Positions 18,823-58,879 of a stretch of 64,000 nucleotides of DNA are shown piece by piece. Source of the stretch: Escherichia phage HK6; sequence record PP724615.1; one strand, written 5' to 3'. Below the pieces are notes generated by a model that was not told the origin of the DNA, ran no database searches, and worked only from the letters and a program-made list of their open reading frames with translations. The first letter of the stretch is position 1, and every line of letters starts with the position of its first letter. The position numbers were made by a program, and so were the translations under genes.

Positions 18823-18830
18823 TTATTATT

Positions 18831-18906: not shown

Positions 18907-18912
18907 ATTATT

Positions 18913-18988: not shown

Positions 18989-18997
18989 AGAATGCTA

Positions 18998-19424: not shown

Positions 19425-19451
19425 ATTTTATTTCCTATTTAAGTTAATTTG

Positions 19452-19986: not shown

Positions 19987-19998
19987 CGTATAAATTGT

Positions 19999-20093
19999 TT
20001 GGCGGAAAAGATGGGAGTTGAACCCATAAGGCGGTATTGCTACCACTCAACCGATTTCCAATCGGGTTTAGTCACCAGTCTATTTGCTTTTCC
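19999..20093 (-). tRNA. tRNA-Ser (GGA), long variable arm
   Basis: T-arm ATGGG-TTCAACT-CCCAT; acceptor GGAAAAG/CTTTTCC; anticodon loop TTGGAAA; 5' end overlaps the stop of the HNH gene by about 14 nt. Confidence 0.6.
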
Positions 20094-20664: not shown

Positions 20665-20680
20665 ACATTACCCTATAAGT

Positions 20681-20765
20681 TGGTGGGGCTAGGGAGACTC
20701 GAACTCCCACGCATTTAAGCTACGGAATCTAAGGCCGTATTGTCTACCAGTTCCAGCATAGCCCC
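20681..20765 (-). tRNA. tRNA-Leu (TAG), long variable arm
   Basis: T-arm GGGAG-TTCGAGT-CTCCC; acceptor GGGGCTA/TAGCCCC; anticodon loop CTTAGAT. Confidence 0.65.
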
Positions 20766-20770
20766 AAATT

Positions 20771-20844
20771 TGGTGGAGAAAGAGGGAGTTGAACCCTCGT
20801 CTTCTGCGTGCAAAGCAGATGTTCTACCATTAAACTATATCCCC
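20771..20844 (-). tRNA. tRNA-Ala (TGC)
   Basis: T-arm GAGGG-TTCAACT-CCCTC; anticodon arm TCTGC-TTTGCAC-GCAGA. Confidence 0.65.
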
Positions 20845-21129
20845 AAATTCTTTAGTTTACTAAGGCTATTAGCTCGGCGTAACTACAGCACCTTCGCTTC
20901 GAGCGGAAGGAACCGCGTCATCTCGCAAACCCGATACACTATTCAGTTGCCGCTGAATCTAGTGGACTAATCTAGAACTTCTCCCGAATCGTAGGGATCG
21001 TGCTTTTTGGCAGCCAGTCCTAGGTCGAGCTAATACCTTAGTGAACTATGATGAGGATTTCTCCTCATCAATTTATATTGATATTATAACAAGAAATTAA
21101 GCATCAAGCAACTGCATTTTTCTTGAAAT

Positions 21130-21209
21130 TGGTAGATCGCCTGGGACTCGAACCCAGAACCTTCCGATTAAAAGTCGGATGCTACTAAACCTATTGAGCT
21201 AGCGATCTA
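21130..21209 (-). tRNA. tRNA-Lys (TTT)
   Basis: Acceptor AGATCGC/GCGATCT; anticodon arm TCCGA-CTTTTAA-TCGGA; T-arm CTGGG-TTCGAGT-CCCAG. Confidence 0.7.
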
Positions 21210-21397
21210 TTAGTAACCATTATACACTTCTTTAATAGAGTGGACTTTTAAGTAAGGGTGATTAGTACTAAACTCTACCATTACTTCATCCCAATTTTTA
21301 CCGTAATGAGCAAGTAAGGATTTTGATGTATTCTTACCTGAACGTTTGTCACTTACTACTAATCGAAATACTTTCATTTCGAAATCCCCTATTAAAA

Positions 21398-21474
21398 TGG
21401 AAGCGGGTGCAGGAATCGAACCTACCTCTTTCTAGCTTATGAGACTAGTGATCTCTACCAGAGATCTAACCCGC
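21398..21474 (-). tRNA. tRNA with CAT anticodon (Met/fMet/Ile2-type)
   Basis: Anticodon arm CTAGT-CTCATAA-GCTAG; T-loop TTCGATT; acceptor pairing imperfect, ends approximate. Confidence 0.5.
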
Positions 21475-21481
21475 AATTGTT

Positions 21482-21557
21482 TGGTCAGTGCGGCAGGACT
21501 CGAACCTGCGACCCGAAGCATCCAAGGCTCCCACGCTACCAACTGCGCTACGCACTG
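21482..21557 (-). tRNA. tRNA-Pro (TGG)
   Basis: Acceptor CAGTGCG/CGCACTG; anticodon loop CTTGGAT; T-arm GCAGG-TTCGAGT-CCTGC. Confidence 0.75.
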
Positions 21558-21566
21558 TTAATTCTT

Positions 21567-21764
21567 TTATTGTGGAGGAATATTAATAATTCGTCCATCT
21601 ACACAATAAACGGTACTAGGAATCGTACTATATATGTAGAAATTCTTTATATTACTCTCTCCGCCACAGAAATTTTTAGCAAATTCATACTCTTTATTAA
21701 TGGTTGAGTCAAATTTAAAACAACCAGTAAGTAGGAATACAGATAGTAATAAAACTTTCTTCAT
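21567..21764 (-). CDS. Small lipoprotein (65 aa)
   Basis: Signal peptide with lipobox LLTGC; promoter module upstream. Confidence 0.5.
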   Translation of the reverse strand: MKKVLLLSVFLLTGCFKFDSTINKEYEFAKNFCGGESNIKNFYIYSTIPSTVYCVDGRIINIPPQ

Positions 21765-22217
21765 TTAGCTTTCCTTCTCTTCACTTTATAAGATATATTA
21801 TACAGAGAATTAAGCAGAATAGCAAATGAATTTTTAATAAATTTACTTATTGTGTAGGCCACCTGGAGGCTACCAACCCCACGGCTGACAAAGAAGTTTG
21901 CGAGACCTCTCTTAAATGCCAGAATAGACCCGCCGATCTATCGGAACCTACATAATAAGTAAACTTTATAGTGTCATTCTAGACAGGACTCGAACCTGTT
22001 ATCACTTGTGCGGACTTACGAGAACCATTCTTTCACTCGAATCGAACGAGCTTCTGCCCTCGCCAAGCTGGTTTCCCCATCAACCACGCTAGAATGTTTG
22101 ATTATTTTCAGTGCAAGAGTCCGAGTCTTGGACACGACCGCTTCGCAAGTACATAGGCTGCTTATCATGAGTCAGCACTTCCGAATTGCTAGCTCCGTGT
22201 TCTGCACTGAAATTTTG

Positions 22218-22565
22218 TTAATTTAACAGTAAAGTACGATCTACTTCACCATTAATTGTTCGGCATTCTTCTGGGATCTCTGGTGTAGCCTTATATTCCC
22301 ACCATTCAGAACCGTCGTATTCACCACGTTCTAACCAAGTTCCATCAGTAAACCACACGTTACCATAAAGCAATTGCCCACCATAACCAGAATCATATTT
22401 AAAGTCTAGATTATTTAGAAAATCTTCAATATCTTTTTCTGTATAACCTACGGGCAATACCCAAACTTCTTTGTCTCCATAATAACCGAATTCTATCTTA
22501 ATACACTTAACTTCAGAATTAGTATTCTTTAGGGCAAGTAACAACTCTTCTTTAGCATTAATCAT
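22218..22565 (-). CDS. Hypothetical protein (115 aa)
   Basis: ORF track. Confidence 0.5.
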   Translation of the reverse strand: MINAKEELLLALKNTNSEVKCIKIEFGYYGDKEVWVLPVGYTEKDIEDFLNNLDFKYDSGYGGQLLYGNVWFTDGTWLERGEYDGSEWWEYKATPEIPEECRTINGEVDRTLLLN

Positions 22566-22591
22566 AGCATATTTCTCGTGCTAGTTTAGTT

Positions 22592-22667
22592 TGGTACACC
22601 CACTAGGACTTGAACCTAGAACCCCCCGCTTAAGAGGCGGTAGCTCTAACCATTGAGCTATGGATGT
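22592..22667 (-). tRNA. tRNA-Lys (CTT) by eye
   Basis: Acceptor ACATCCA/TGGGTGT; anticodon loop CTCTTAA; T-arm CTAGG-TTCAAGT-CCTAG. Confidence 0.55.
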
Positions 22668-22843
22668 ATTAAATTACTTTTTCCAGTTCATCAGCTATGG
22701 CTTTGATTTTTTCAAAGTTTACATCACTTATAATGATACCTTCCAGTGACAGAGATATTCTAGCATTTTTTATAGCAGATTCTTTTATCTGCTCTATCTC
22801 TTCTGGAGTAAACTCCCTACGTTCCATAGCTAACCTACCTTAT

Positions 22844-22920
22844 TTGGCGCGACCGATGGGATTCGAACCCACATTCTCTCCCGTGACAGGGGAGTACCAT
22901 TACCAAACCAGCCCCGGTCG
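22844..22920 (-). tRNA. tRNA-Asp (GTC)
   Basis: Acceptor GCGACCG/CGGTCGC; anticodon arm CTCCC-CTGTCAC-GGGAG; T-loop TTCGAAT. Confidence 0.7.
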
Positions 22921-22930
22921 CATAATTCAT

Positions 22931-23116
22931 TTACTCAGCTTTGAGTTTTTCAATAGCTGCATTAAGTTCCTTAAGAAACTCTTTTCGTACATTAAGACGA
23001 TTAAGACTTACTAGTATATCATGTTTAAGTTCTTCGATGTATTTCTTCTCAACTTCAATATTGTTGATAGTGCTATCACGATGAACTTCTAGCTGTGCAA
23101 TTACATTCTTGGACAT
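22931..23116 (-). CDS. Hypothetical coiled-coil protein (61 aa)
   Basis: ORF track. Confidence 0.35.
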   Translation of the reverse strand: MSKNVIAQLEVHRDSTINNIEVEKKYIEELKHDILVSLNRLNVRKEFLKELNAAIEKLKAE

Positions 23117-23230
23117 GCTTGTTTCCTCAGTTATTAATGAAAATGGTATCTGTGGCTGAATTCGATGTCAGCAATGATAGCTGGTTGGCTACCGGTTTAC
23201 TTAACTCTACACAGAATTTGGCGGGCCGTG

Positions 23231-23313
23231 TAGGATTCGAACCTACGTTGTCTTTCGACACGGATTAACAATCCGCCGCCAAACCGCTTGGCTAACGACC
23301 CTAAATTTATATT
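23231..23313 (-). tRNA. tRNA, anticodon GTT (Asn-type) with unusually long variable arm (83 nt)
   Basis: Acceptor GGGTCGT/ACGGCCC; D-stem GCCA/TGGC; anticodon arm GCGGA-TTGTTAA-TCCGT; 13-nt variable arm; T-arm GTAGG-TTCGAAT-CCTAC. Confidence 0.6.
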
Positions 23314-23453
23314 GCTGACTAGGATTTTCACCTAGACGGAGTTAGCACCGTAGCGTGTAGCGGCATACCTCTCCAAACCGTGCCTCATCTTTCAATTACG
23401 GAGACAGTGTTCCTACGCGTGCCTGAATTGTTTTAACAATTCTTTCAGCAAAT

Positions 23454-23529
23454 TGGACGACCGCATGAGATTTGAACTCACATAAAAAGGATTTGCAATC
23501 CTTCGCCTAAGCCATTCAGCCAACGGTCG
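23454..23529 (-). tRNA. tRNA-Cys (GCA)
   Basis: Anticodon arm AAGGA-TTGCAAA-TCCTT; T-loop TTCAAAT; acceptor CGACCGT/GCGGTCG. Confidence 0.65.
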
Positions 23530-23598
23530 ATTTATCTTATTCTATCATGTTGCTTCTCCAGTTCAATTTATGTAATTATTATACAGAACTTTTGGAAA

Positions 23599-23886
23599 CT
23601 AAGCAACTACATTTTTTAAAAATTTGATGCCTTTCTTTTTCTTCTTATATTTCCACGTTAATGGATTCTGTCGATTATGAACGCTTGAGATCTTTGTCTC
23701 GTCAAAGTTCTTCAATATCATGTAATCACAAGATAATTGTTCTAGTGGAATGTGATCACCATCAAAAGCATATACATAAGGCTGTTGACTAGCACGATAA
23801 TGATAGACTTTGTTAATTCTACGTTTCAGCGACTTATCCGCGCAGTAAATAAAGAAGTTTTCAGGATGCATCAGCAGCTCCTTCAA
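23599..23886 (-). CDS. Hypothetical protein (95 aa)
   Basis: Promoter module upstream at about 23540-23620. Confidence 0.5.
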   Translation of the reverse strand: MKELLMHPENFFIYCADKSLKRRINKVYHYRASQQPYVYAFDGDHIPLEQLSCDYMILKNFDETKISSVHNRQNPLTWKYKKKKKGIKFLKNVVA

Positions 23887-23888
23887 AT

Positions 23889-23963
23889 TGGTGCACCCTG
23901 TTCGTATCGAACGAACCTCTCAAGCTCTTCAGGCAAGCGCTAATCCATCTCAGCTAAAGGTGC
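23889..23963 (-). tRNA. tRNA-like, possible Phe (GAA), weak anticodon stem
   Basis: Good acceptor (GCACCTT/AGGGTGC) and T-arm (GTTCG-TTCGATA-CGAAC) but the anticodon stem has two mismatches; may be degenerate. Confidence 0.4.
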
Positions 23964-23969
23964 AAATTT

Positions 23970-24040
23970 TGGCAGGGGTAAAGGTATTCGAAACCTTTTC
24001 ATGGGTTTTGGAGGCCCATTTGCAACCTATGCGTACCCCA
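23970..24040 (-). tRNA. tRNA-Trp (CCA) candidate, short D region
   Basis: T-arm AAGGT-TTCGAAT-ACCTT; anticodon loop CTCCAAA; only about 71 nt, 5' end approximate. Confidence 0.45.
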
Positions 24041-24049
24041 ATTATTAAT

Positions 24050-24124
24050 TGGCACACCCAACGAGGATCGAACTCGTGTTCCCACTGTGAAAGAGTAGTG
24101 TCCTAACCGCTAGACGATAGGTGC
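24050..24124 (-). tRNA. tRNA-Glu (TTC)
   Basis: D-stem GTCT/GGAC; anticodon arm CTACT-CTTTCAC-AGTGG; T-arm ACGAG-TTCGATC-CTCGT. Confidence 0.7.
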
Positions 24125-24131
24125 ATTAAAT

Positions 24132-24219
24132 TGGTGGGCGTTAATGGAGTCGAACCACTCGAGTCGCAATGACCAGGGATTTACAATCCCCTCCGCTACC
24201 ACTTACGGAATAAACGCCC
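24132..24219 (-). tRNA. tRNA-Tyr (GTA), long variable arm
   Basis: Anticodon arm GGGGA-TTGTAAA-TCCCT; D-arm TTCC..GG.AG resembles bacterial tRNA-Tyr; acceptor GGGCGTT/AACGCCC. Confidence 0.7.
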
Positions 24220-24417
24220 AAATTCTCTTTAAGGTAGCCAGTGTTACCGCACTGACTAGGAGTTATCGGTAAAATGGTGGGGGCCATCTGCCAAAAATTT
24301 ACTCTGCTAAAGTAAGAACTACCTTAAAAAGAACTTTCCAAATTAGATAAATATTATACCAAGTTTTATAGTATTGGGCAAGTCAAATTTTAAAGAACTT
24401 GCCCAATGCTGTATTAG

Positions 24418-24693
24418 TTAGTCGAACTTAGGAGTGACAGTTAAGGAGAATGGAAGTTCGAAAACTTCTTCCCCCTCATTACTAACGGTAACTACACGAC
24501 CTTTAAGTTCAGACATTGAAATATCAATATCAGCTTTTGCATCCGGAGCCATGCCAGCTTCAACACATTTAGCTTTAATTTCCGGCAGAAGTTCTACATC
24601 GTAGAAATAAAGCCATTCAATCTCACCTTCCCAGCCTTCCCAGGATTTACAGATTGCACTTTCAATACCAGCTGCTATAACACGATTTTGCAT
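24418..24693 (-). CDS. Hypothetical protein (91 aa)
   Basis: Promoter module upstream at about 24700-24770. Confidence 0.5.
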   Translation of the reverse strand: MQNRVIAAGIESAICKSWEGWEGEIEWLYFYDVELLPEIKAKCVEAGMAPDAKADIDISMSELKGRVVTVSNEGEEVFELPFSLTVTPKFD

Positions 24694-24783
24694 TCATTAA
24701 CTCCTTCATCAATTTATATAACTATTATATCAGAAATTTAAAGCAAAAGGCAAGTACATTTTTAAAAATTCTGTTTGGAGGAG

Positions 24784-24990
24784 CTAAACTCCAGATTCTT
24801 CAGCCAAGTCTAGACTAATAAGAGATATAGCCATAATTGCCGCTCCATGTTCTTTTTCTCCAGTTTCTTTAGCTAGAGTTATAATATCAAGAAATTGCTT
24901 ATGAAAATCTGCAACCTCTTGAGTTAAACCCGCCTCAGCAATCATACCTTTAAGCATGAAACGTTGTGCGGTAATTTCAGGATTAGCCAT
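24784..24990 (-). CDS. Hypothetical protein (68 aa)
   Basis: ORF track. Confidence 0.4.
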   Translation of the reverse strand: MANPEITAQRFMLKGMIAEAGLTQEVADFHKQFLDIITLAKETGEKEHGAAIMAISLISLDLAEESGV

Positions 24991-25164
24991 GTTGTTTCTC
25001 CAGTTTCATCTTTAATAGTCTACAAATAAAATCAATGTCTTCATCCGTGCCTAGATCTCTATCTTCAAGAGTTGCCTTGAAGTTTTTAGTCAACTCCATG
25101 AGAATAACTTCTCTAGAACGACGTGTTGGCGGAGGTGGATGTCTATACATCTTATTTCCTTAAT

Positions 25165-25241
25165 TTGGTAGGGGTGGTGGGATTCGAACCCACAAAACCT
25201 GAATTTTAAGTCCAGTACCTATGCCAATTCGATTACACCCC
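25165..25241 (-). tRNA. tRNA with TAA anticodon (Leu-type) but short variable arm
   Basis: Acceptor GGGGGTG/CACCCCT; anticodon arm CTGGA-CTTAAAA-TTCAG; T-arm GTGGG-TTCGAAT-CCCAC; 77 nt. Confidence 0.55.
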
Positions 25242-25343
25242 CATGTAATCAGTTTATTAGTTGATACATATTATAGCCTAGTGAAAATCCTACTACTAGT
25301 CCCACAAACCAACCAATATAGTAATCTTTTAGTTTCACAGGTA

Positions 25344-25529
25344 TTATCCTCGTTCAATATCTAGGGAAATACCACAGTTAGGATTAATACCTGTACCATT
25401 GCAATTTGGGCAAACCCAGATATTGCAAAAAGTATCTCCTGCTTCTGCATCAGAACTTTCACCAATTCCCCTACACTCAGGGCAGGCACATTCTTCTAGC
25501 TCTTGCTTGAGTTCTTGAAACTTGGACAT
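25344..25529 (-). CDS. Small zinc-ribbon protein (61 aa)
   Basis: CPECRG...CPNCNG Cys pairs. Confidence 0.45.
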   Translation of the reverse strand: MSKFQELKQELEECACPECRGIGESSDAEAGDTFCNIWVCPNCNGTGINPNCGISLDIERG

Positions 25530-25538
25530 ATAGTCTCC

Positions 25539-25727
25539 TTAGTCAATTACTTTTGAGGCTTCTAAAGCATTGACGTAGTAAACATCTTCTACATTATACA
25601 TATAGTCTACTACTTTGTCCATAGCATGGAGTTCGGATGTAGCCTTTACTAGTCTGTACCCTTGTTTAAACTCGTCCGAACGTTCTCTATCTTGTGCAAA
25701 TTTAACAGAAACTATGAATAATTCCAT
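25539..25727 (-). CDS. Hypothetical protein (62 aa)
   Basis: ORF track. Confidence 0.4.
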   Translation of the reverse strand: MELFIVSVKFAQDRERSDEFKQGYRLVKATSELHAMDKVVDYMYNVEDVYYVNALEASKVID

Positions 25728-25745
25728 TAATTGTCCTTATTTAAT

Positions 25746-25823
25746 TTGGTGGCTCCCCGAGGATTCGAACCTACGTACCTACCGGTTATGAGCCGGGTGC
25801 TCATACCATATGAGCTTGAGAAC
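25746..25823 (-). tRNA. tRNA with CAT anticodon (Met/fMet/Ile2-type)
   Basis: Acceptor GGTTCTC/GGGAGCC; D-arm GCTCA-TATGGTA-TGAGC; anticodon loop CTCATAA; T-loop TTCGAAT. Confidence 0.6.
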
Positions 25824-25829
25824 CAAAAT

Positions 25830-25918
25830 CTGGCGGAAGAAGTGGGAATCGAACCCACAAGGCTATATTTCAAACCGACAGATTAGCAATCTGCTGCAAT
25901 ACCGTTATGCTATTCTTC
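25830..25918 (-). tRNA. tRNA-Ser (GCT), long variable arm
   Basis: Acceptor GGAAGAA/TTCTTCC; anticodon arm GCAGA-TTGCTAA-TCTGT; T-arm GTGGG-TTCGATT-CCCAC. Confidence 0.7.
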
Positions 25919-25940
25919 CGAATTTATAAGATATATTATA

Positions 25941-26510
25941 TTAGAAATTTAGCTTCATAGCAAGAAAATTTTTCAAGTTTTCGGTAGACATCTCATCCAC
26001 ATCTACAGGAGAAACAAATCCATTTAATTTTCTAGCAAATTTTTCACCAGCAGGATCGTTGTCCCCGACAGCTACTAATTTAAAAGGTAATAATTTCAAT
26101 TGCTTTAATAACGCTTTTCCTGGAGAAGAACCCAACATTGCCAGGGCTGGGTAACCAGCATTATGTAACGCAACTGCCTTAAATACAGATTCAGCGATCA
26201 ATACTACTTTTTCATCTCCATTGAGAGTTTCTAGTCCCCATACACACTGGGTAGTAGAATAAGTAAAGTATTTAGCTTCAAAGGGGCACTTACCATGACC
26301 TTTTGGAGCAGAAGGATTGTAAGTTTGATAGCCCCTCAACATCCCAGAGAAGTCATACAACGGGACAGTTAGCCATCCTTCCGGACTTAACCAGCAATGA
26401 TATTTATCTGTATCAAATCCTCTAGATAAGAGGTGCTGTGTTAGCTCATCAACATTCATATTTGGTTCCTCTCTCAAATTTATAGATATATTATACAGAG
26501 AATTTAGCAT
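25941..26510 (-). CDS. Toprim-domain protein (189 aa)
   Basis: VAVGDNDPAGEKFARKL resembles the Toprim DxD acidic motif; no zinc-binding primase domain. Confidence 0.5.
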   Translation of the reverse strand: MLNSLYNISINLREEPNMNVDELTQHLLSRGFDTDKYHCWLSPEGWLTVPLYDFSGMLRGYQTYNPSAPKGHGKCPFEAKYFTYSTTQCVWGLETLNGDEKVVLIAESVFKAVALHNAGYPALAMLGSSPGKALLKQLKLLPFKLVAVGDNDPAGEKFARKLNGFVSPVDVDEMSTENLKNFLAMKLNF

Positions 26511-26634
26511 TCAAGCAATCAAATTTTTTAACTTTTTAGAGGAGAATCATAGGGCACTTAAGGGTAGCAGATAAGTGGTGAGGACCAAAATTTGTGACCC
26601 CACTAAAAATCCGGGGGCAATTTTTAAAGATCCC

Positions 26635-26663
26635 TTGACATTTTCGCTGGGGTAGTGTAAAGT
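26635..26663 (+). promoter_or_regulatory. sigma70-like promoter (TTGACA, 17 bp, TAAAGT) for the plus-strand operon
   Basis: Perfect -35 hexamer, weaker -10; shares the 13-mer TTGACATTTTCGC with the promoter at 55633. Confidence 0.5.
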
Positions 26664-26725
26664 ATATGTTATGGATGAGTGATCAAAGAGACACACATTT
26701 TCTATATACTAGGAGGTGTCAAAAA

Positions 26726-27718
26726 ATGACAGAAGAAGTAGCTAAGAGTCCTGAGACCGTCGCTAGCGTTGCAGCAGAACTGCACCGTCACGAGGAATCA
26801 GATAAGAAAAAGTGGGAGAAGGTCAGAGCCTACGAAGAAAAACATCGTGAACACGATGAAGATGATAAAGAAGATGACGATGATGAGCATTGTCATAAAT
26901 ATGGAAAACATAAAATGCAAGAACCAGTAAACGTATTTACTAGTGGCTTCCCTGGCCTACTGGGTGGTTACCCAGCAAACGCAGGTGCTTTCGGTGGTGA
27001 AGGTATGGGACTATTCGGAGCTATCCTAATCGGTGCTCTATTAACAGGCGGATTCGGTGGATTCGGTGGATTCGGTGGACGTGGTATAGTTGGTGATGGT
27101 ACCGCAGTTGATGCAGTACTTCAGAACCAAGATACCGCTAGTATTCTAGCAGCTATTAACACTACTCGTACAGAAGCTAATCAGGGTACTGGAGCTGTTT
27201 TAAGCGCAGTTAACAATGGTTTTAGCCAGACATCCCAAAACCAGAGCCGTGATACTCAGTCTGTACTAACTACGATCTATGGTACGGGTGCTAATCTGTC
27301 TAATCAAATCTGCCAGGAAACTCGCAACGTTATTCAGGGTCAGTTCGATCTTTCTCGCCAGATTGATCAATCTTTCGCAGCTAACCAGATAGCTCGTGCA
27401 CAAGATAAGTTTGATTCTGCACAGATCGCTTTCCAGCAGACTTTACAAACTAATAACCAGTTTGCCGCTGTTCAGGCTCAGATGTGTGCTAACCAGAACT
27501 CTCTGGAACGTCAGATTGCTGAATGTTGCTGTGAACTTCAGACTGCGATCGCTGGTGTAACTACTGCGCGTATCCAGGATGAGTTAGATGCGTGTCGCCT
27601 ACGTGAAGCAATCGCTGCGGGTAGCGGTGCTAACGGTCAGGTAATTAATCAAATCGCTTTAAGTCTTGGTACTATCACTCAGACTCTGGCTGGTCTGCAG
27701 GCTAAACTGCCGGCTTAA
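26726..27718 (+). CDS. Low-complexity membrane protein, acidic N-terminus, GGFGGFGGFGG segment, Q/T/N-rich C-terminus (330 aa)
   Basis: Start at the ATG 8 nt after AGGAGG (track ORF begins 26666); hydrophobic glycine-zipper GMGLFGAILIGALLTGGFGGFGGFGGRG; no family recognised. Confidence 0.65.
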   Translation: MTEEVAKSPETVASVAAELHRHEESDKKKWEKVRAYEEKHREHDEDDKEDDDDEHCHKYGKHKMQEPVNVFTSGFPGLLGGYPANAGAFGGEGMGLFGAILIGALLTGGFGGFGGFGGRGIVGDGTAVDAVLQNQDTASILAAINTTRTEANQGTGAVLSAVNNGFSQTSQNQSRDTQSVLTTIYGTGANLSNQICQETRNVIQGQFDLSRQIDQSFAANQIARAQDKFDSAQIAFQQTLQTNNQFAAVQAQMCANQNSLERQIAECCCELQTAIAGVTTARIQDELDACRLREAIAAGSGANGQVINQIALSLGTITQTLAGLQAKLPA

Positions 27719-27739
27719 TATTAAGGGGAGGAGCCCATT

Positions 27740-28156
27740 ATGAGTAAATATGGTTTTGTAAATAACGGACTTAATCAAAGTATGGGCTCCCAGCAGCCCA
27801 TTCCGGGTCTGGATAACCCCTACTTACAACAGTTGCAACAGCGTTTAGCAGAAGCGCAACAGATGCAGCAACAACTCCAGCAAAACCCTGGAAGTGTAAG
27901 TCCTATGCAAATGATGCAGCAAATGAGCGGGCAGTCGCAAATGCCTCAACAAATGCAGCAACAGATTCCGCAGCAGCAAGTTCAGCAACAAACCCAACAA
28001 CCGCAGGTTTCTGCGGAAGGACAGGCAGTACTAGCCCTTTTCGAAGACTTCGCAAAGACAGAGGATGGAAAACAGCTTGTATCACTTATGGGTAAGTTTA
28101 ATAGCTTCTGCCAAAGCCAAGTTGCAAAAGCTCAAAATGGTGGTAATAACTCCTAA
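27740..28156 (+). CDS. Gln-rich low-complexity protein (138 aa)
   Basis: RBS GGGGAGGAG; about 40 percent Q in the central region. Confidence 0.6.
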   Translation: MSKYGFVNNGLNQSMGSQQPIPGLDNPYLQQLQQRLAEAQQMQQQLQQNPGSVSPMQMMQQMSGQSQMPQQMQQQIPQQQVQQQTQQPQVSAEGQAVLALFEDFAKTEDGKQLVSLMGKFNSFCQSQVAKAQNGGNNS

Positions 28157-28165
28157 GGAGGAATT

Positions 28166-28360
28166 ATGTGTTGCAGAAAATCTGTTTCGTGCTGCCCAAT
28201 GCCTGTAGCACGTTGTTGCTCTCCAGCAATGTTTACGCAAATACCGGCGTTCAATCCGTTTGCCTTTAAGCCTACTCTTATCCTGCCCCCTAGAGTAGAT
28301 TTTCAGTCAAGATTGGCCTCCCGTATGGGTGGTTGCTGTAACAAGAGTATATGGTTCTAA
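28166..28360 (+). CDS. Small Cys-doublet protein (64 aa, four CC pairs)
   Basis: RBS AAGGAGG; MCCRKSVSCCPMPVARCC...GGCCNKSIWF. Confidence 0.55.
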   Translation: MCCRKSVSCCPMPVARCCSPAMFTQIPAFNPFAFKPTLILPPRVDFQSRLASRMGGCCNKSIWF

Positions 28361-28375
28361 GGAACCAAACAATAA

Positions 28376-28406
28376 AGCCCCTAAGTCTTTCGACTAGGGG
28401 CTTTTC
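28376..28406 (+). terminator. Rho-independent terminator ending the plus-strand operon
   Basis: GCCCCTAG..CTAGGGGC stem followed by TTTTCTTTT. Confidence 0.75.
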
Positions 28407-28426
28407 TTTTATCTTAAATACAGAAA

Positions 28427-28455
28427 AGCCCGCGCTTTCGGAGAAAACGCGGGCT
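28427..28455 (-). terminator. Rho-independent terminator downstream of SPFH gene
   Basis: AGCCCGCG..CGCGGGCT stem followed on the minus strand by TTTTCTGTATTT. Confidence 0.7.
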
Positions 28456-28479
28456 TGGTTCGAAGATTACGTGTAACTA

Positions 28480-29427
28480 TTACTTGTTACGCATATCCAT
28501 AATCATTTGACCATCATAGCCAGTGCCAACTACAGTCTGAGGTACACCACCTTGATACTTCTGAGCACGAATCATTTCAACTTCCAGTTGCTTCCAGCGA
28601 ATCATCTCAGGAGTAATGGTACGTTGCAATGCGGCGTTAGCTTCAGCTTCTTTCTTAGCTGCGTACAGTTTAGCATCTGCGTCACGTTCATTAGCAATAG
28701 CTTGGTTGTTGCGAGCCTCACGATCTGCTTCTGCTTGTTTAACTTTTTGCTGTGCTTCCTGTTCAACGCGAGCGAGTTCAGCTTTCGCAGCATTAACTTG
28801 TTCTTCACGAACTTTGGTATTCTGTACCTGTTCCATGATTACCGGTGGCAAAGTAATATCCTGAAGAAACACCTGCTTAACTGTGTAACCATATGGGCGT
28901 GCATACTCTTCAACTTCCTGTTGAATTGCAGTTTGCAATTGAGCCTGAATTTTAGCATCAAATAAATCTTGTGCTTTAGGTACAGACTTACCAAACTCAC
29001 GAATAGTAGACAGTAATTTTTCAGTTACATATTTGTCTAACGCTTGATCCTGAGTACCTGCGTTAATACGGTTAATCGGTGCCTTAGAACCATCAAACTG
29101 CAACATAACAGTCAAGTCAACAGTGGATTTAAACTTGTCCTGGCTAGGAACCTGAAGTTTATCTAATTTTACAGCAATATCTTTTGTACTAAAAGTATCA
29201 AAAGATGCAAACGGGTTTACAAGATGGAAACCAGGCAATACTGGATTAGGGTCTACTTTACCCAGGAATGTTTGGGTTTTAACCGTACCATCAGAAACAA
29301 TAGTATATGAATTAAAAGCTAGGATTAAACCTGCTAAACCAACTACAGCACCAATACCCCAACGTTTAATAGTACGAATTACTTTCTGCTCAGAAGTCAG
29401 TTCTTTCATATTTTTAGTATTAAACAT
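28480..29427 (-). CDS. SPFH/band-7 (stomatin/prohibitin-like) membrane protein (315 aa)
   Basis: N-terminal TM, SPFH-like core, long Ala/Gln/Glu-rich coiled coil. Confidence 0.7.
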   Translation of the reverse strand: MFNTKNMKELTSEQKVIRTIKRWGIGAVVGLAGLILAFNSYTIVSDGTVKTQTFLGKVDPNPVLPGFHLVNPFASFDTFSTKDIAVKLDKLQVPSQDKFKSTVDLTVMLQFDGSKAPINRINAGTQDQALDKYVTEKLLSTIREFGKSVPKAQDLFDAKIQAQLQTAIQQEVEEYARPYGYTVKQVFLQDITLPPVIMEQVQNTKVREEQVNAAKAELARVEQEAQQKVKQAEADREARNNQAIANERDADAKLYAAKKEAEANAALQRTITPEMIRWKQLEVEMIRAQKYQGGVPQTVVGTGYDGQMIMDMRNK

Positions 29428-29461
29428 ATATTTCCTTTGTTTTAGTTACAGTTAATAAAAT

Positions 29462-29536
29462 TGGCCGAGGTGACAGGATTCGAACCTGCATAAAGGAATT
29501 TAGAAGACTCCTGCCTCTCCCTTAGACTACACCCCG
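29462..29536 (-). tRNA. tRNA-Arg (TCT)
   Basis: Acceptor CGGGGTG/CACCTCG; anticodon arm GGAGT-CTTCTAA-ATTCC; T-arm GCAGG-TTCGAAT-CCTGT. Confidence 0.65.
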
Positions 29537-34491: not shown

Positions 34492-35007
34492 TTACTTCGC
34501 TTTACGCTTGCGAGCTGGTTTAGCAGATTTACGGGCAGAATCACCCGTGAACTTAATGCCTACACCGTAACACAGAGCGCGAACGTTATCTTTACTATAC
34601 TCTACGCCAAAGATATTTGGCTTAACAGAACCAAACTGTCCACGAGCATCACGTAGTACGTCTGCCGTTGGTTTACGCTTCTGGTTAACTGCTTTCTCAT
34701 AGTCTTTCATAGCCATGCCATTACGAGAGAACAATTCAGCCCCAGCGTTGAAGCTCAGGGAAACTGGGACAGATTTGTGGCCGTAATTTTCTACATACAT
34801 AACCATTTTGTAGGATTTACGGGTGGCATTTTTAGCTTTAGGCTTCTGACGAATCGGAGCCGGATTATTCAGTGCTTGTGCAGCCTGAGCATCGGTAGGA
34901 TGCTTACGCAGGTGGCGTTCCAGACGAGCTTTGCGATTAGCCTCGGTCTGCGGGAAAGTTTTAACTGCCGGAGCTGCTTGAGTTTTTGCGTTTTTCTGCT
35001 TAGCCAT
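34492..35007 (-). CDS. Basic protein with Lys/Arg-rich termini (171 aa)
   Basis: Basic N- and C-termini, optimal-looking codons. Confidence 0.55.
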   Translation of the reverse strand: MAKQKNAKTQAAPAVKTFPQTEANRKARLERHLRKHPTDAQAAQALNNPAPIRQKPKAKNATRKSYKMVMYVENYGHKSVPVSLSFNAGAELFSRNGMAMKDYEKAVNQKRKPTADVLRDARGQFGSVKPNIFGVEYSKDNVRALCYGVGIKFTGDSARKSAKPARKRKAK

Positions 35008-53148: not shown

Positions 53149-53559
53149 ATGACTACTCCAACTCAGTGGACTGATGAACTGTTCGAAAAAATGTCTTCCG
53201 AATACGTTGCTCGCATGGAGCAATTTCCAGAGGATGAACGTCCGGGTGTTAGCATGGAAATTGTTAGCGAAATTGCCCAGGAAAATGGTGTAACTCCGAA
53301 TGGTTTTCGTATGAAGCTAACTAAAGCAGGTGTGTATATCAAGAAAGCTGCTGGCTCCGCTTCTAAATCTAGCGCATCTACTGGAGAAAAAGCTTCTGGT
53401 GGTTCTCGTACTTCTAAAGCCCAAGCTCATGCCGACCTTCGTTCAGCATTCTCTGATGCTGGCCTAGCACCAGATTTTCTGGATGATGCAATTATCGACA
53501 AACTGACCGGTAAAGCGGCTGCTCATCTGGCAGAAGCAATCCGAGCTATCACTAAGTAA
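53149..53559 (+). CDS. Hypothetical protein with optimal-looking codons (136 aa)
   Basis: Promoter-like TTGCTT...TATAAT upstream; Ser/Ala-rich central segment. Confidence 0.6.
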   Translation: MTTPTQWTDELFEKMSSEYVARMEQFPEDERPGVSMEIVSEIAQENGVTPNGFRMKLTKAGVYIKKAAGSASKSSASTGEKASGGSRTSKAQAHADLRSAFSDAGLAPDFLDDAIIDKLTGKAAAHLAEAIRAITK

Positions 53560-55632: not shown

Positions 55633-55661
55633 TTGACATTTTCGCCGCTTAGGTATATACT
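55633..55661 (+). promoter_or_regulatory. sigma70-like promoter (TTGACA, 17 bp, TATACT) inside the ligase split
   Basis: Perfect -35; shares TTGACATTTTCGC with the promoter at 26635. Confidence 0.55.
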
Positions 55662-55725: not shown

Positions 55726-55754
55726 TTGCTAAATGCTTAAATACTTGCTATAAT
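55726..55754 (+). promoter_or_regulatory. Conserved early promoter (TTGCTA, 17 bp, TATAAT)
   Basis: Directly upstream of the second ligase ORF. Confidence 0.6.
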
Positions 55755-55784
55755 ATTTATATAAATTGATAAGGAAGAAATTTG

Positions 55785-56564
55785 ATGAAAATCGAAATTC
55801 CAACACAATGTCCCTCTTGTGGTTCTAAGCTAGATCTTGTCAACGGACAATTATTCTGTAGGAATAAGTCCAACTGTCCAGCGCAATCAAGTAAGTTAAT
55901 TGAGAACTTCTGTTCAAAAATGAAGTTAAAGGGCTTTGGCCCAAAAACTATTGAGAAGCTGGAGCTGACGAAGATTTCAGAACTATTTTACCTAACCGAA
56001 GAAGATTTGGTTAGAGCCGTGGGTAGCAAGGTTGCCGCTAAGTTAATTAGCGAATTAAATACTAAAGTTCGCGGAGGCATTGACTTTGGTTCAGTTCTCG
56101 GTTCTTTAGGAATCCCTCTAATTGGAGAGGTTGCAGCAAAGAAATTATCCCAAAATTGCACTAGCTTCCACGATGTGAAGGCTGACGGCAAGGCTGGAGA
56201 AAACTATAAAGCCTGGCTAAATTCCCCACAAGGCAAGGATGTTATCGAACTACCGTGGAAATTCTCAACTGGTATTAAGGGCACTAAAGCCGACATCATC
56301 ATTACAGATGAGTTAGTTGCCCAGCCAAATGGAATCGCGGTATGTATTACCGGATCTTTGCAAGATTTTGCAAATCGAACGGATGCAACAAACTATTTAG
56401 AGAGTCTAGGATATACGGTTAAGAAATCCGTTACCAAAGACGTCAAATACCTAATCTGTGAGGATGAATCAAAACGTTCTTCCTCATCTTATAAGAAAGC
56501 CGAAACGAATGGGATAGAAATCCTGTCGATTAAAGAACTATTGGAGAAAAATAATAATGTCTAA
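55785..56564 (+). CDS. NAD-type DNA ligase, C-terminal part (Zn finger, HhH, BRCT, 260 aa)
   Basis: Four-Cys zinc finger CPSCGSKL...CRNKSNCPAQ, HhH-like segments, BRCT-like C-terminus; ATG 8 nt after AAGGAAG. Confidence 0.75.
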   Translation: MKIEIPTQCPSCGSKLDLVNGQLFCRNKSNCPAQSSKLIENFCSKMKLKGFGPKTIEKLELTKISELFYLTEEDLVRAVGSKVAAKLISELNTKVRGGIDFGSVLGSLGIPLIGEVAAKKLSQNCTSFHDVKADGKAGENYKAWLNSPQGKDVIELPWKFSTGIKGTKADIIITDELVAQPNGIAVCITGSLQDFANRTDATNYLESLGYTVKKSVTKDVKYLICEDESKRSSSSYKKAETNGIEILSIKELLEKNNNV

Positions 56565-57324
56565 ACTGAACTGGAACGTAGAAGGTGTAACCGAGTCTCT
56601 GAAAGCAAAAGCCACTGCTCTGGGTGTTGCTGTAATCTCTCAAGAACAAGTAGCTGCTATCGCTGCTGAACTGGCTGCTGAAACTGGCAAAGATGTTACT
56701 GCTCGCTCTGTTGGCTCTAAACTGCGTAAAGAAGGTTTTGAAGTACAGAAAGCTAACGAAGTGCAGAAATCTCCGTGGACTCCTGAGCAGGAAGCTGAAC
56801 TGGTTGATTTCCTGAACGCTCATGCTGGTCAGTATACCTATGCTGAAATCGCTGCTGCTGTAGCTGGTGGTCAGTTCGGTGCTAAACAGGTACAGGGTAA
56901 GATCCTGAGTCTGGAAATGACCGCTTCTGTTAAACCAACTGAAAAAGCTGCTGCTGTTCGTTCCTTCACTCCGGATGAAGAAACTGATTTTGTTAATCAG
57001 GTTGTTGCTGGTGCTACTATTGAAGCTATCGCTGCTCACTTCGGTCGCAATATTAAGCAGATCCGTGGTAAAGCTCTGAGCCTGCTTCGTGAAGGTCGTA
57101 TTGCTGCTATGCCGGTACAGGAAACTTCAAGTGCTAAAACTCGTGAAGATCTGTTAGAAGGTCTAGATCTGGTTAACATGACTGTTGCTGAGATCGCTGA
57201 GAAAACCGGTAAGTCTGAGCGTGGTGTTAAATCTATGCTGTCTCGTCGTGGTCTGGTTGCTAAGGACTATGATGGTGCCGCTAAGCGTGCTAAACTGGAT
57301 GCAAAAGCTGCGGCTGCTGAATAA
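56557..57324 (+). CDS. Ala-rich protein with three internal HTH-like repeats (255 aa)
   Basis: Three related segments (TYAEIAAAVAGGQFGAKQVQGKILSL / TIEAIAAHFGRNIKQIRGKALSL / TVAEIAEKTGKSERGVKSMLSR); codon usage looks tuned for high expression. Confidence 0.65.
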   Translation: MSKLNWNVEGVTESLKAKATALGVAVISQEQVAAIAAELAAETGKDVTARSVGSKLRKEGFEVQKANEVQKSPWTPEQEAELVDFLNAHAGQYTYAEIAAAVAGGQFGAKQVQGKILSLEMTASVKPTEKAAAVRSFTPDEETDFVNQVVAGATIEAIAAHFGRNIKQIRGKALSLLREGRIAAMPVQETSSAKTREDLLEGLDLVNMTVAEIAEKTGKSERGVKSMLSRRGLVAKDYDGAAKRAKLDAKAAAAE

Positions 57325-57342
57325 TCTGGTAAATTAAACCTA

Positions 57343-57374
57343 AGGGGAGGGGGCTATGCTCCTTCCCCTTTTTG
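57343..57374 (+). terminator. Rho-independent terminator
   Basis: AGGGGAGGGGG..CTCCTTCCCCT hairpin followed by TTTTTGCATTT. Confidence 0.7.
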
Positions 57375-57406
57375 CATTTAGAAGGCACGAAAGCGTGCAA
57401 AGGAGA

Positions 57407-58879
57407 ATGACCTTGTTTAACGTGCAAGCTGTAGTGTTGAAGATGCTTCTCGCTTCCGAACAGAAGCAAATAGCATTGGAAACATTCTCAAAACTGCATA
57501 AAGATCATTTTAATGACGCTTTCTCCTCAATTTACCAAGCCGTCCAGAATTATTATAAAAAATATAACACAATGCCGTCCATTGACGCACTTATGCTTGA
57601 AGCTAATAGGAACGCCCGCCTTTCTCAAGCTCTAGTCGTCTTAGCTAACACTCAAATTCCAGAAGTGAGCATGGAACAGGCACTTGAAGTCCTAGAGGCC
57701 GAATATACACAGGATTTATTCCTGAAGCTTCTAGAAACAGACGTGCTTCAAGATTTAACAATGCTGGATCAGGGAGAAATTCTCAACCGAGTTGCCTCCC
57801 TTCACTTAAAATTAGAAGAGAAAGTAACGAATACTGGAAAAGTATTCAACGCAGATAACATGCGTATTTTCCAGAGAGAAGAAGATACCAAACTGAACTT
57901 AATCGCTCTTGGTATTTGTAATGAGTTCGACGCTCAAATTGGTTTAGCTCGCACAGAAACGTTACTGCTTGGTGGTTGGCGTGGTACTGGTAAATCCATT
58001 ATCTGTTCAAACATACAGGTTCAGCAATATTTGAATGGGGATATTGCTCCATACTTCTCAATTGAGATGAAAGAACATGAAGTATTTAGACGTAATCTAG
58101 CCATGTTAGCTGGTGTATCAGCATTAGCAATGCGTAATAATACTCTAGAAGGTGCAGCTCTATTAAGATTAGCCAGAACTAGAGCTAGAATGTTTAATGG
58201 TGGTGAAGAGCTTTTCGATAACTTCGTTAAACAGTACACAATGGCTAAGATGAGTGATTTCTACGATATGGAGAGTAAACTAATAGAAGGGTATGAGCTA
58301 CATACTCCTATGATTATTGTTTATGACCCTGAGCTGTCTATTACAACAGTTGACGTAGAATTAAATAAATTAGTTGCTAGATATGGAGATAAAGTTACAG
58401 TAGCTTTACTGGACTATATTAACCAAACCCGACTTCCAGATTCTAAAACCATTGATATGTATGACTGGAAAGAACAGATGGTTGTTAGCTCGTCTTTCAA
58501 ATCTATCTGCCAGAAACATAACGTGGCTGGTGTAGCTCCTTACCAGATCGATCAAGATGGTAGAACACGTATGTCAAAGGGGATTCTTGATTCCGCAGAC
58601 ATGGCTGCTAATCTTAATGCTGCAAAAGCTGATAATGGTCAAGGTGCTATTATGTTTGACTTCGTTAAGACTCGTTCTTCTGATAGCGTGAAGTTTATGC
58701 CTAAAATGAACTGGGAAACTCTGCGAATGGATAACACTACCAACCTAGCAATGGAAGATATATCTCAAATGGAAGCTGAGTTCGTTATCCCTATTGAGAA
58801 GGATAAGCCGGCTCAACCTAAACGTGCTAAGAAAGACAAAACTGAAAATTCAACAGGTGAACAGGCCAGCGATATATGA
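57407..58879 (+). CDS. DnaB/RecA-like replicative helicase candidate (490 aa)
   Basis: Walker A GGWRGTGKS; start set at the ATG after AAAGGAGA (track start 57356 lies inside the terminator hairpin). Confidence 0.65.
   Translation: MTLFNVQAVVLKMLLASEQKQIALETFSKLHKDHFNDAFSSIYQAVQNYYKKYNTMPSIDALMLEANRNARLSQALVVLANTQIPEVSMEQALEVLEAEYTQDLFLKLLETDVLQDLTMLDQGEILNRVASLHLKLEEKVTNTGKVFNADNMRIFQREEDTKLNLIALGICNEFDAQIGLARTETLLLGGWRGTGKSIICSNIQVQQYLNGDIAPYFSIEMKEHEVFRRNLAMLAGVSALAMRNNTLEGAALLRLARTRARMFNGGEELFDNFVKQYTMAKMSDFYDMESKLIEGYELHTPMIIVYDPELSITTVDVELNKLVARYGDKVTVALLDYINQTRLPDSKTIDMYDWKEQMVVSSSFKSICQKHNVAGVAPYQIDQDGRTRMSKGILDSADMAANLNAAKADNGQGAIMFDFVKTRSSDSVKFMPKMNWETLRMDNTTNLAMEDISQMEAEFVIPIEKDKPAQPKRAKKDKTENSTGEQASDI

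What the first reader, a model, noticed from the sequence alone, without database searches (positions are those of the whole stretch)
56557..57324. Ala-rich protein with three tandem HTH-like repeats and host-optimal codon usage
Three internally repeated segments of about 23 residues and strongly biased codons (GCT, CTG, GGT, CGT) point to a highly expressed DNA-binding protein, possibly the abundant early DNA-binding factor of T5-type phages.
Basis: partly seen in the sequence, partly recalled or inferred. Interest (0 to 1): 0.45.

Follow-up and report, generated by a model that had tools for sequence, protein, structure and literature searches.

The report
Phage T5 D5 DNA-binding protein gene

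Summary
The ORF at 56557..57324 (+) encodes a 255-aa protein that is 254/255 identical to bacteriophage T5 D5 (T5.118). The T5 reference record annotates D5 as a DNA-binding protein required for DNA replication and late transcription. All three parts of the observation hold, with one correction.

- **Alanine:** 17.6% Ala against a window mean of 6.4%.
- **Codon usage:** GCT 40/45, GGT 17/19, CTG 16/19, CGT 10/12. CAI is 0.77 against a reference built here from 29 E. coli ribosomal-protein/EF genes. That is the highest of 83 window ORFs (others 0.34 ± 0.10) and above the median ribosomal-protein gene (0.66).
- **Repeats:** there are four helix-turn-helix modules of about 60 residues, not three of 23. 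The 23-residue segments are their HTH cores.

The gene lies in a conserved ligB–D5–helicase–primase–polymerase block. Upstream sequence is identical to the annotated T5 promoters P-K28b/a, and a strong terminator follows the gene. It occurs in 902 phage records, and strong codon bias is kept in distant orthologues.

The most likely mechanism is a monomer made in large amounts that coats duplex DNA with four basic recognition helices.

The parts
55633..55661 (+). Promoter-like site TTGACA-17-TATACT, at the position of the annotated T5 promoter P-K28b, upstream of ligB-D5
   Evidence: Consensus scan 11/12. The ligA-ligB gap is 100% identical to the T5 region annotated with P-K28b/P-K28a.
55726..55754 (+). 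Promoter-like site TTGCTA-17-TATAAT with an extended TG, at the position of the annotated T5 promoter P-K28a
55782..56564 (+). ligB (NAD-dependent DNA ligase subunit B). It is the upstream gene of the same transcription unit, and its stop codon overlaps the D5 start by 8 nt.
   Evidence: phrog_3498 E 1e-136. T5 annotation. No + strand promoter-like site lies between the ligB start and the D5 start. CAI is only 0.29.
56543..56546 (+). Shine-Dalgarno GGAG, 10 nt upstream of the D5 ATG
   Evidence: Read directly from the sequence.
56557..57324 (+). D5 coding sequence: 255 aa, 27.0 kDa, pI 6.8
   Evidence: ORF. 254/255 identical to T5 D5. phrog_323 E 1.5e-71. 512 phage records with near-identical DNA.
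56557..56766 (+). Module R1 (aa 1-70): tri-helical HTH with recognition helix ARSVGSKLRK (net charge +4)
   Evidence: AF2 helices 11-22, 29-43, 49-58. Invariant R50, K55, L56, R57. Weak profile match to a designed engrailed homeodomain, E 0.0035.
56767..56958 (+). Module R2 (aa 71-134): Myb/SANT-like tri-helical HTH that starts with W74
   Evidence: AF2 helices 76-88, 95-101, 109-118. R2-R3 hhalign probability 96%. Weak Pfam Myb match at 71-100. Invariant Q113, G114, K115, L117.
56959..57141 (+). Module R3 (aa 135-195): tri-helical HTH, the duplicate of R2
   Evidence: AF2 helices 139-150, 155-162, 166-178. Pfam HTH_23 at 151-184. Smith-Waterman z 8.4 against R2.
57142..57273 (+). Module R4 (aa 196-239): two-helix HTH resembling sigma-70 region 4
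   Evidence: Pfam Sigma70_r4_2 at 204-230, 28.7 bits against a cut-off of 25.7, found in 46/52 family members. AF2 helices 210-217, 221-231.
57274..57321 (+). C-terminal basic, Ala-rich helix (aa 240-255), net charge +3
   Evidence: AF2 helix 240-254. Charges.
57342..57370 (+). Intrinsic-terminator-like hairpin (13-bp stem, 8 G-C pairs) followed by a T run, 18 nt after the D5 stop codon
   Evidence: Scan. RNA fold -25.5 kcal/mol, z -3.1, 0/200 shuffles as stable.

Best explanation
The gene encodes the D5 protein of a T5-type (Demerecviridae) phage. D5 is an early protein made in very large amounts and is a flexible monomer of four helix-turn-helix modules strung together.

In each module the third ('recognition') helix is basic and highly conserved. 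The first helices are acidic.

The most likely mechanism has three steps:
1. The four recognition helices of one monomer bind successive stretches of double-stranded DNA with little sequence specificity.
2. Enough protein is made to cover phage DNA stoichiometrically.
3. Coating the template is what makes D5 necessary for phage DNA replication, for shutting off early genes and for turning on late genes.

Shown here: the identity with D5, the modular HTH build, the concentration of conservation in the recognition helices, and the expression signals. Taken from the T5 record and from paper titles: DNA binding and the replication/late-transcription phenotype. Inferred: multi-groove binding, coating of the DNA, and coating as the cause of the temporal switch.
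For: Identity:
- 254/255 aa identical to T5 D5.
- The T5 record note describes a DNA-binding protein required for replication and late transcription.
- phrog_323, E 1.5e-71.

Architecture:
- AF2 model with pLDDT 93 but pTM 0.52. That combination means confident domains with uncertain mutual arrangement.
- Four HTH modules are predicted. All module pairs are related at profile level.
- A natural 309-aa variant (P0122) carries an extra R2 copy.

DNA contact by all four modules:
- 25 of 56 positions in or beside the four third helices are at least 90% conserved, against 25 of 199 elsewhere (Fisher p 6.5e-7).
- The third helices carry net charges of +2 to +4. The first helices of R2 and R3 and the second helix of R1 carry -3 to -4.

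Fold:

Abundance:
- CAI 0.767, first of 83 ORFs. The co-transcribed ligB has 0.29 and the downstream helicase 0.33.
- ENC is lowest or second lowest locally in Proteus, Vibrio and Klebsiella phage orthologues.
- Upstream sequence is identical to annotated T5 promoters. A strong terminator follows the gene.

Context:
- The ligB-D5-helicase-primase-polymerase order is conserved in four Demerecviridae lineages.

Literature:
- The title of McCorquodale et al. [quoted passage not shown]
- In bioRxiv 10.64898/2026.07.11.737809, purified D5 is a 26-kDa monomer, is toxic when expressed alone in E. coli, and is proposed to bind retron msdDNA through an HTH.
Against: - No DNA-binding experiment, footprint or stoichiometry could be obtained here. 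The original biochemical papers are not held in the library.
- My recollection that D5 binds duplex DNA cooperatively is from memory only.
- The protein is nearly neutral overall (pI 6.8), which is unusual for a non-specific DNA coater.
- R4 resembles sigma-70 region 4, which would also fit a specific transcription-factor role.
- Co-transcription and an overlapping start with the poorly adapted ligB gene do not by themselves explain a large excess of D5.
- High CAI is indirect evidence of abundance.
Confidence: 0.75

Rival explanations
1. D5 is a sequence-specific transcription factor, or a sigma-like co-factor. Its C-terminal sigma-region-4-like HTH would recognise late promoters or contact host RNA polymerase and so switch transcription directly. 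Abundance would be secondary.
For: - Sigma70_r4_2 match above Pfam's cut-off in 46/52 family members.
- Many records annotate the gene as 'putative transcription factor D5' or 'D5-like transcriptional regulator'.
- The D5-type module occurs fused behind a LuxR/sigma-type HTH in P0255 and P0247.
- The mechanism of the T5 early-to-late switch is still unknown (PMC7472727).
Against: - The Pfam match covers only the HTH part of region 4 (profile positions 23-49 of 54). No region 2 is present.
- All four modules, not only R4, have conserved basic recognition helices.
- Codon adaptation at ribosomal-protein level suits a stoichiometric protein better than a regulator.
- The gene sits in the replication block, not beside late genes.
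- PMC7472727 reports other T5 proteins in RNA polymerase preparations and does not name D5 in the passages searched.
Confidence: 0.2
2. D5 is mainly a replisome accessory factor. It would organise origins or nicks, or load and position the neighbouring DnaB-like helicase and polymerase. The loss of late transcription would be an indirect result of failed replication.
For: - Conserved position between ligase subunit B and the helicase-primase-polymerase genes in four lineages.
- The record note says it is required for DNA replication.
- From memory only (not checked): D5 was reported to affect T5 DNA polymerase activity on nicked duplex DNA in vitro.
Against: - No domain other than HTH modules is present that could contact a helicase or polymerase.
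- The extreme codon adaptation exceeds that of every replisome gene in the window.
- This reading is compatible with DNA coating rather than an alternative to it.
Confidence: 0.15
3. The protein is a virion structural component ('portal vertex protein').
For: - Some GenBank records label it 'portal vertex protein'.
- The homologue was among the most abundant proteins in mass spectrometry of Yersinia phage phiR2-01 particle preparations (PMC8624392).
Against: - The same paper states that D5 is the one protein of that list not found in T5 virions.
- The fold is all HTH.
- The gene lies in the early replication block under early promoters.
- Carry-over of an abundant DNA-bound protein explains the mass-spectrometry signal.
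Confidence: 0.02

Closest known systems
Bacteriophage T5 D5 protein (T5.118, YP_006946.1; phrog_323)
   Same: 254/255 residues. Same length, same neighbours (ligB upstream with an 8-nt overlap, DnaB-like helicase downstream) and an identical upstream promoter region.
   Different: One substitution (D25A). In this window there is no HNH endonuclease gene between helicase and primase, unlike the T5 reference.
Tandem Myb/SANT-type repeats (c-Myb R1-R3, plant R2R3 Myb WER, Timeless C-terminal DNA-binding domain)
   Same: - Tri-helical modules in tandem. Each starts with an aromatic residue followed by an acidic helix ('W-T-x-E-E').
- The third helix is basic.
- Weak profile matches to Timeless (E 0.013) and c-Myb.
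- Pfam Myb models hit 13/52 family members.
   Different: - The query itself scores below Pfam's Myb cut-off (17.6 against 24.4 bits).
- The regularly spaced second and third tryptophans, which I recall as a Myb hallmark, are not kept.
- Linkers are much longer, at 17 to 31 residues.
- Resolvase, Lrp, LuxR and GcrA HTH domains match equally well, so no specific kinship is shown.
Sigma-70 region 4 / LuxR-GerE type HTH
   Different: Only the HTH core aligns. There is no sigma region 2 or 3 architecture, so D5 is not a sigma factor.
Bipartite or multi-HTH DNA-binding regions of transposases and homing endonucleases (Tc3, Mos1, TnsB; phage endonuclease tails)
   Different: - The PDB transposase matches are not significant (E 0.06 or worse). 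The best endonuclease match in BFVD (BcepSauron, E 1.6e-6) has low TM-scores (about 0.2) and 19% identity.
- D5 has no catalytic domain.
- D5 is a stand-alone four-module array.
Abundant phage-encoded or bacterial DNA-coating proteins (for example SPO1 TF1, HU/H-NS-type nucleoid proteins). Functional analogy only, from my own knowledge.
   Same: The proposed way of working: an abundant small protein covers DNA and thereby changes which genes are transcribed and how DNA is replicated.
   Different: No sequence or fold relationship. D5 is an all-alpha HTH array, and a monomer in solution according to the 2026 preprint.

Membership tests
T5 D5 protein family (phrog_323, Demerecviridae D5) | Full-length sequence homology to T5 D5 | tested here: met
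   254/255 identity. phrog_323 E 1.5e-71 over residues 1-253. 895 phage records cover at least 80% of the protein.
T5 D5 protein family (phrog_323, Demerecviridae D5) | Position in the early replication block: ligB - D5 - DnaB-like helicase - primase - DNA polymerase | tested here: met
   Window ORFs and PHROG matches. Same order in T5, Proteus phage PM135, Vibrio phage River4 and a Klebsiella Sugarlandvirus.
T5 D5 protein family (phrog_323, Demerecviridae D5) | Early-class expression from the T5 P-K28 promoters | tested here: met
   The 208-nt ligA-ligB gap is 100% identical to the T5 region annotated with P-K28b and P-K28a, and both hexamer pairs were found by the scan. Actual transcription was not measured.
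T5 D5 protein family (phrog_323, Demerecviridae D5) | Binding to double-stranded DNA; requirement for replication and late gene expression | not testable with these tools
   Taken from the T5 record note and the title of McCorquodale et al. 1979 as cited in PMC12630848. The paper itself is not held.
Myb/SANT DNA-binding repeat (Pfam PF00249/PF13921) | Score above Pfam's gathering cut-off | tested here: not met
   Query scores 17.6 bits against a cut-off of 24.4. 13/52 relatives match PF00249 at E<0.01 (best 8.6e-7) and 6/52 match PF13921.
Myb/SANT DNA-binding repeat (Pfam PF00249/PF13921) | Tri-helical fold with a conserved aromatic residue at the start of each repeat | tested here: met
Sigma-70 family | Region 4 HTH | tested here: met
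   Sigma70_r4_2 scores 28.7 bits against a cut-off of 25.7 at residues 204-230, covering profile positions 23-49 of 54. 46/52 relatives match.
Sigma-70 family | Region 2 (core binding and -10 recognition) | tested here: not met
   No Sigma70_r2 match even at E up to 10. The rest of the protein consists of further HTH modules.

The most novel reading that the evidence does not exclude
D5 is a phage 'chromatin' protein with two linked activities. First, the four-HTH monomers polymerise head-to-tail along phage DNA, using the acidic first helices and basic third helices of neighbouring modules. Second, its sigma-region-4-like last module touches host RNA polymerase, so that coating itself re-targets transcription from early to late promoters. 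The same module array would be a reusable part, also found fused to LuxR/sigma-type proteins (P0255, P0247) and varying in copy number (P0122).
Probability: 0.12. Interest if true: 0.5.

Novelty: already known. Interest (0 to 1): 0.15.

Why it matters
D5 has been known genetically and biochemically since the 1970s, so recognising it adds nothing new about the gene's identity.

The value lies in two smaller points. First, how T5 switches from early to late transcription is still unexplained (PMC7472727). D5 is one of the few proteins known to be required for late gene expression, and it has no solved structure. The four-module map with its conserved recognition helices gives concrete targets for mutagenesis.

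Second, D5 was recently reported as the trigger of a type IX retron defence system (bioRxiv 10.64898/2026.07.11.737809). Two of the four reported escape substitutions (G53D, G232D) fall on nearly invariant glycines, one in the R1 recognition helix and one directly after that of R4.

Tried and rejected
- **Single-sequence repeat detection.** Only R2/R3 was significant. Family profiles with column-shuffle controls were needed to show the four-fold relationship.
- **Sequence search of the PDB.** Neither the protein nor the family profile gave anything significant; the best matches were a designed engrailed homeodomain at E 0.0035 and Timeless at E 0.13.
- **Whole-chain Foldseek against the PDB.** The best E-value was 0.06, as expected for beads on a flexible string.
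- **Sharp & Li CAI weights from memory.** I replaced them with weights derived in-session from E. coli K-12 genes. The conclusion did not change.
- **Reading the original D5 papers (PMC353123, PMC355262).** They are not held.
- **Literature searches on 'T5.118/gpD5' and 'protein D5'.** They returned only noise.
- **The DRT4 trigger ORF55 of T5 (PMC12783706).** I checked it and it is a different protein, PriA-N-terminal-like.
- **The antisense ORF 56530..57039.** Rejected as a gene. Its Ser/Phe-rich translation is the mirror image of the GCT/GAA-rich sense strand.
- **The 'portal vertex protein' annotation.** Rejected.

Full report
**1. What is at the coordinates**

56557..57324 on the + strand is an ATG-to-TAA ORF of 255 codons. 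Its start overlaps by 8 nt the stop of the upstream ORF 55782..56564, which is NAD-dependent DNA ligase subunit B (phrog_3498, E 1e-136). A GGAG lies 10 nt before the ATG. The next ORF downstream is a DnaB-like helicase (phrog_19). It is followed by a 296-aa ORF at the position of the T5 primase gene and an 855-aa ORF at the position of the DNA polymerase gene.

**2. Check of the observation**

*Alanine.* There are 45 Ala in 255 residues (17.6%). The other 82 non-overlapping ORFs of the window average 6.4% (max 15.4%).

*Codons.*
- GCT 40/45, GGT 17/19, CTG 16/19, CGT 10/12, TCT 10/15, ACT+ACC 15/15.
- CAI is 0.709 with the Sharp & Li weights as I remember them.
D5 then scores 0.767.
- The other window ORFs have mean 0.339, sd 0.096, max 0.594.
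- The reference genes themselves, leave-one-out, have a median of 0.664 and a range of 0.54 to 0.84. Poorly expressed E. coli genes of the same locus (gsp operon) score 0.22 to 0.38.
- D5 also has the lowest effective number of codons in the window, 30.5.
- The bias is even along the gene, 0.70 to 0.84 per module. It is not a GC3 effect (GC3 0.305).
- It stops at the gene borders: ligB 0.29, helicase 0.33.

*Repeats.*
- An AlphaFold2 model from a 52-sequence alignment has mean pLDDT 93 and pTM 0.52. That combination indicates confident domains with an uncertain mutual arrangement.
- The model shows three tri-helical units (helices 11-22/29-43/49-58, 76-88/95-101/109-118, 139-150/155-162/166-178). 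It also shows a two-helix unit (210-217/221-231) and a C-terminal helix (240-254).
- On the single sequence, only R2 vs R3 is clearly significant (z 8.4, 0/500 shuffles). R1 vs R4 is marginal (z 2.5).
- With family profiles, R2-R3 reaches hhalign probability 96%.
- All six pairs exceed 60 of 60 column-shuffled controls, z 3.6 to 15.1.
- The alignments are in register: W6, W74 and F137 align at the module starts, and the 'xEIAxxxG' second helices and the basic third helices line up.
There is a fourth, more divergent copy at the N-terminus, and the true unit is about 60 residues.

**3. Identity**

- The DNA matches 514 phage records, 512 of them over at least 80% of its length. Most are 95 to 99% identical and are annotated 'D5 protein', 'putative transcription factor D5' or hypothetical.
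- The protein is 254/255 identical to T5 D5 (T5.118), with one change, D25A.
- The T5 record describes D5 as 'DNA-binding protein; required for DNA replication and late transcription; also is involved in shutoff of expression of ...'.
- By tblastn the family is present in 902 phage records from Escherichia, Salmonella, Klebsiella, Proteus, Vibrio, Aeromonas and Pectobacterium hosts.
- A profile search of 1.84 billion cluster representatives finds 556 proteins at E ≤ 0.001 and 77 at E ≤ 1e-30.
- The order ligB-D5-helicase-primase-polymerase is the same in T5, Proteus phage PM135 (Novosibvirus), Vibrio phage River4 (Ermolyevavirinae) and a Klebsiella Sugarlandvirus.

**4. Expression signals**

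- Two strong promoter-like sites lie upstream of ligB, at 55633-55661 (TTGACA-17-TATACT) and 55726-55754 (TTGCTA-17-TATAAT with TG).
- The whole ligA-ligB gap is 100% identical to the T5 stretch annotated as promoters P-K28b and P-K28a.
- No + strand promoter-like site lies inside ligB. D5 is therefore probably read from these promoters on a ligB-D5 transcript.
- Eighteen nt after the stop codon there is a 13-bp G+C-rich hairpin with a T run. It folds at -25.5 kcal/mol, z -3.1.

*Codon bias in orthologues.* Strong codon bias is a conserved trait of the family. ENC is 36.8 (Proteus phage), 30.7 (Vibrio phage) and 31.8 (Klebsiella phage), each lowest or second lowest in its 30-kb neighbourhood. 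The favoured Leu codon changes between them: CTG, TTA, CTA. This fits selection for translation in different hosts. I did not test it against host reference sets.

**5. Fold and family**

- Pfam gives only HTH-class matches:
  - Sigma70_r4_2 at 204-230 scores 28.7 bits, above the 25.7 cut-off, and is found in 46/52 relatives.
  - HTH_23 matches at 151-184.
  - Myb_DNA-binding at 71-100 falls below its cut-off in the query but matches 13/52 relatives.
- No solved structure is related by sequence. The best match is a designed engrailed homeodomain at E 0.0035, followed by the Timeless tandem Myb-like domain at E 0.013 to 0.13.
- Whole-chain Foldseek against the PDB gives nothing better than E 0.06.
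- In BFVD the only strong hits are D5 homologues (E 3e-27). Weak matches to other multi-HTH phage proteins follow.
- The modules are therefore ordinary tri-helical HTH domains with a Myb/SANT-like sequence flavour. No closer family can be claimed. D5 is not a sigma factor, because region 2 is absent.

**6. How it most likely works**

- Conservation is concentrated in the third helix of every module. In or beside those helices, 25 of 56 positions are at least 90% conserved, against 25 of 199 elsewhere (p 6.5e-7).
- These helices carry net charges of +2 to +4. The first helices of R2 and R3 and the second helix of R1 carry -3 to -4. The whole protein is near neutral (pI 6.8, 27.0 kDa).
- All four modules therefore look like working DNA-contact units joined by linkers of 17 to 31 residues.

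*Evidence from the literature:*
- A 2026 preprint reports that purified D5 is a 26-kDa monomer and is toxic when expressed alone in E. coli.
- It also reports that D5 triggers the type IX retron Kva2. The proposed route, from an AlphaFold3 model, is binding of the msdDNA stem-loop through an HTH.

*Inference:*
- Taken with codon adaptation at ribosomal-protein level, the best-supported mechanism is a stoichiometric duplex-DNA coating protein.
- Each monomer would lay four recognition helices along the DNA. Enough is made to cover the replicating phage genome.
- This coating would be needed for replication and for the early-to-late switch.
- The coating and its link to the switch are inference. 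My recollection of cooperative dsDNA binding in the 1979-1983 biochemical papers could not be checked, because the papers are not held.

*Rivals:*
- A sequence-specific or RNA-polymerase-contacting transcription factor, based on the sigma-region-4-like R4.
- A replisome accessory role, based on synteny.
- A virion component. This is rejected. The 'portal vertex protein' label and the phiR2-01 particle mass-spectrometry signal are best explained by carry-over, and D5 is not found in T5 virions.

**7. Extras that bear on the repeat architecture**

- One relative (P0122, 309 aa) has an additional R2 copy, giving five modules.
- The family profile also hits longer proteins with 4 to 10 copies of similar modules.
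- Among these are P0255 and P0247. In both, a LuxR/sigma-type HTH is followed by an array of R3-like modules (phrog_323 E 9.5e-22 on residues 233-380 of P0255).
- Module number thus varies by tandem duplication, and the array can be recombined with other DNA-binding heads.

**8. Verdict**

The feature is already known, so interest is low.

The modest additions are listed below. None of them appears in the papers I could read. I could not check the older literature or the T5 genome paper.
- The four-module map.
- The R2/R3 duplication.
- The concentration of conservation in the four recognition helices.
- The conserved codon adaptation across hosts.
- Two reported retron-escape substitutions (G53D, G232D) hit nearly invariant glycines, one in the R1 recognition helix and one directly after that of R4.

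Noticed in passing
window 53149..53559 (+): A 136-aa ORF at the position of the T5 D3 gene, annotated 'DNA binding protein' (phrog_1725, no Pfam match). It is also Ala-rich (15%) and has the third-highest CAI (0.576) and third-lowest ENC in the window. Its orthologues in the Vibrio and Proteus phages are likewise among the most codon-biased genes. It is probably a second abundant DNA-binding protein.
   Followed up: partly
window 34492..35007 (-): A 171-aa ORF of unknown function (Pfam DUF7022, phrog_4516) has the second-highest CAI in the window (0.594) and 14.6% Ala. That suggests another highly expressed protein with no assigned role.
   Followed up: partly
window 57342..57415 (+): The start of the helicase ORF as listed, and as annotated in T5 (ATG 57356), lies inside the terminator hairpin 57342-57370. 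An AAGGAG at 57400-57405 is followed by ATG 57407 and TTG 57413 in the same frame, and one close relative (EH7) annotates a shorter protein. The true start is probably downstream.
   Followed up: no
window 56530..57039 (-): A 169-aa antisense ORF overlaps D5. Its Ser/Phe-rich, low-complexity translation is the mirror of the GCT/GAA/CTG-rich sense strand, so it is an artefact of the codon bias and not a gene.
   Followed up: partly
window 58876..58879 (helicase/primase junction): The helicase ORF is followed directly by the ORF at the T5 primase position, with a 4-nt overlap. The T5 reference has an HNH homing endonuclease gene (hegJ) between the two, so the window comes from a T5 relative that lacks this insertion.
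   Followed up: partly
window 17227..29536 (-): A cluster of 22 tRNA genes lies on the minus strand, including Leu-UAG, Leu-UAA, Arg-UCU and Ala-UGC. D5 largely avoids the codons these phage tRNAs serve (TTA 1, CTA 1, AGA 0, GCA 2) and uses codons favoured in highly expressed host genes instead.
   Followed up: partly
proteins P0255, P0247, P0122, P0257 (from; not in the window): D5-type HTH modules occur in other arrangements. P0122 is a five-module D5 variant. P0255 and P0247 are 506 to 569-aa proteins with an N-terminal LuxR/sigma-type HTH followed by an array of R3-like modules. P0257 is an eight-copy HTH array. Their genomic contexts were not examined.
   Followed up: partly
public records matching window 56557..57324: Several GenBank and RefSeq records (for example Salmonella phages SP3 and vB_Sen-E22) label this gene 'portal vertex protein', which is almost certainly a mis-annotation. 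Many others call it hypothetical.
   Followed up: partly
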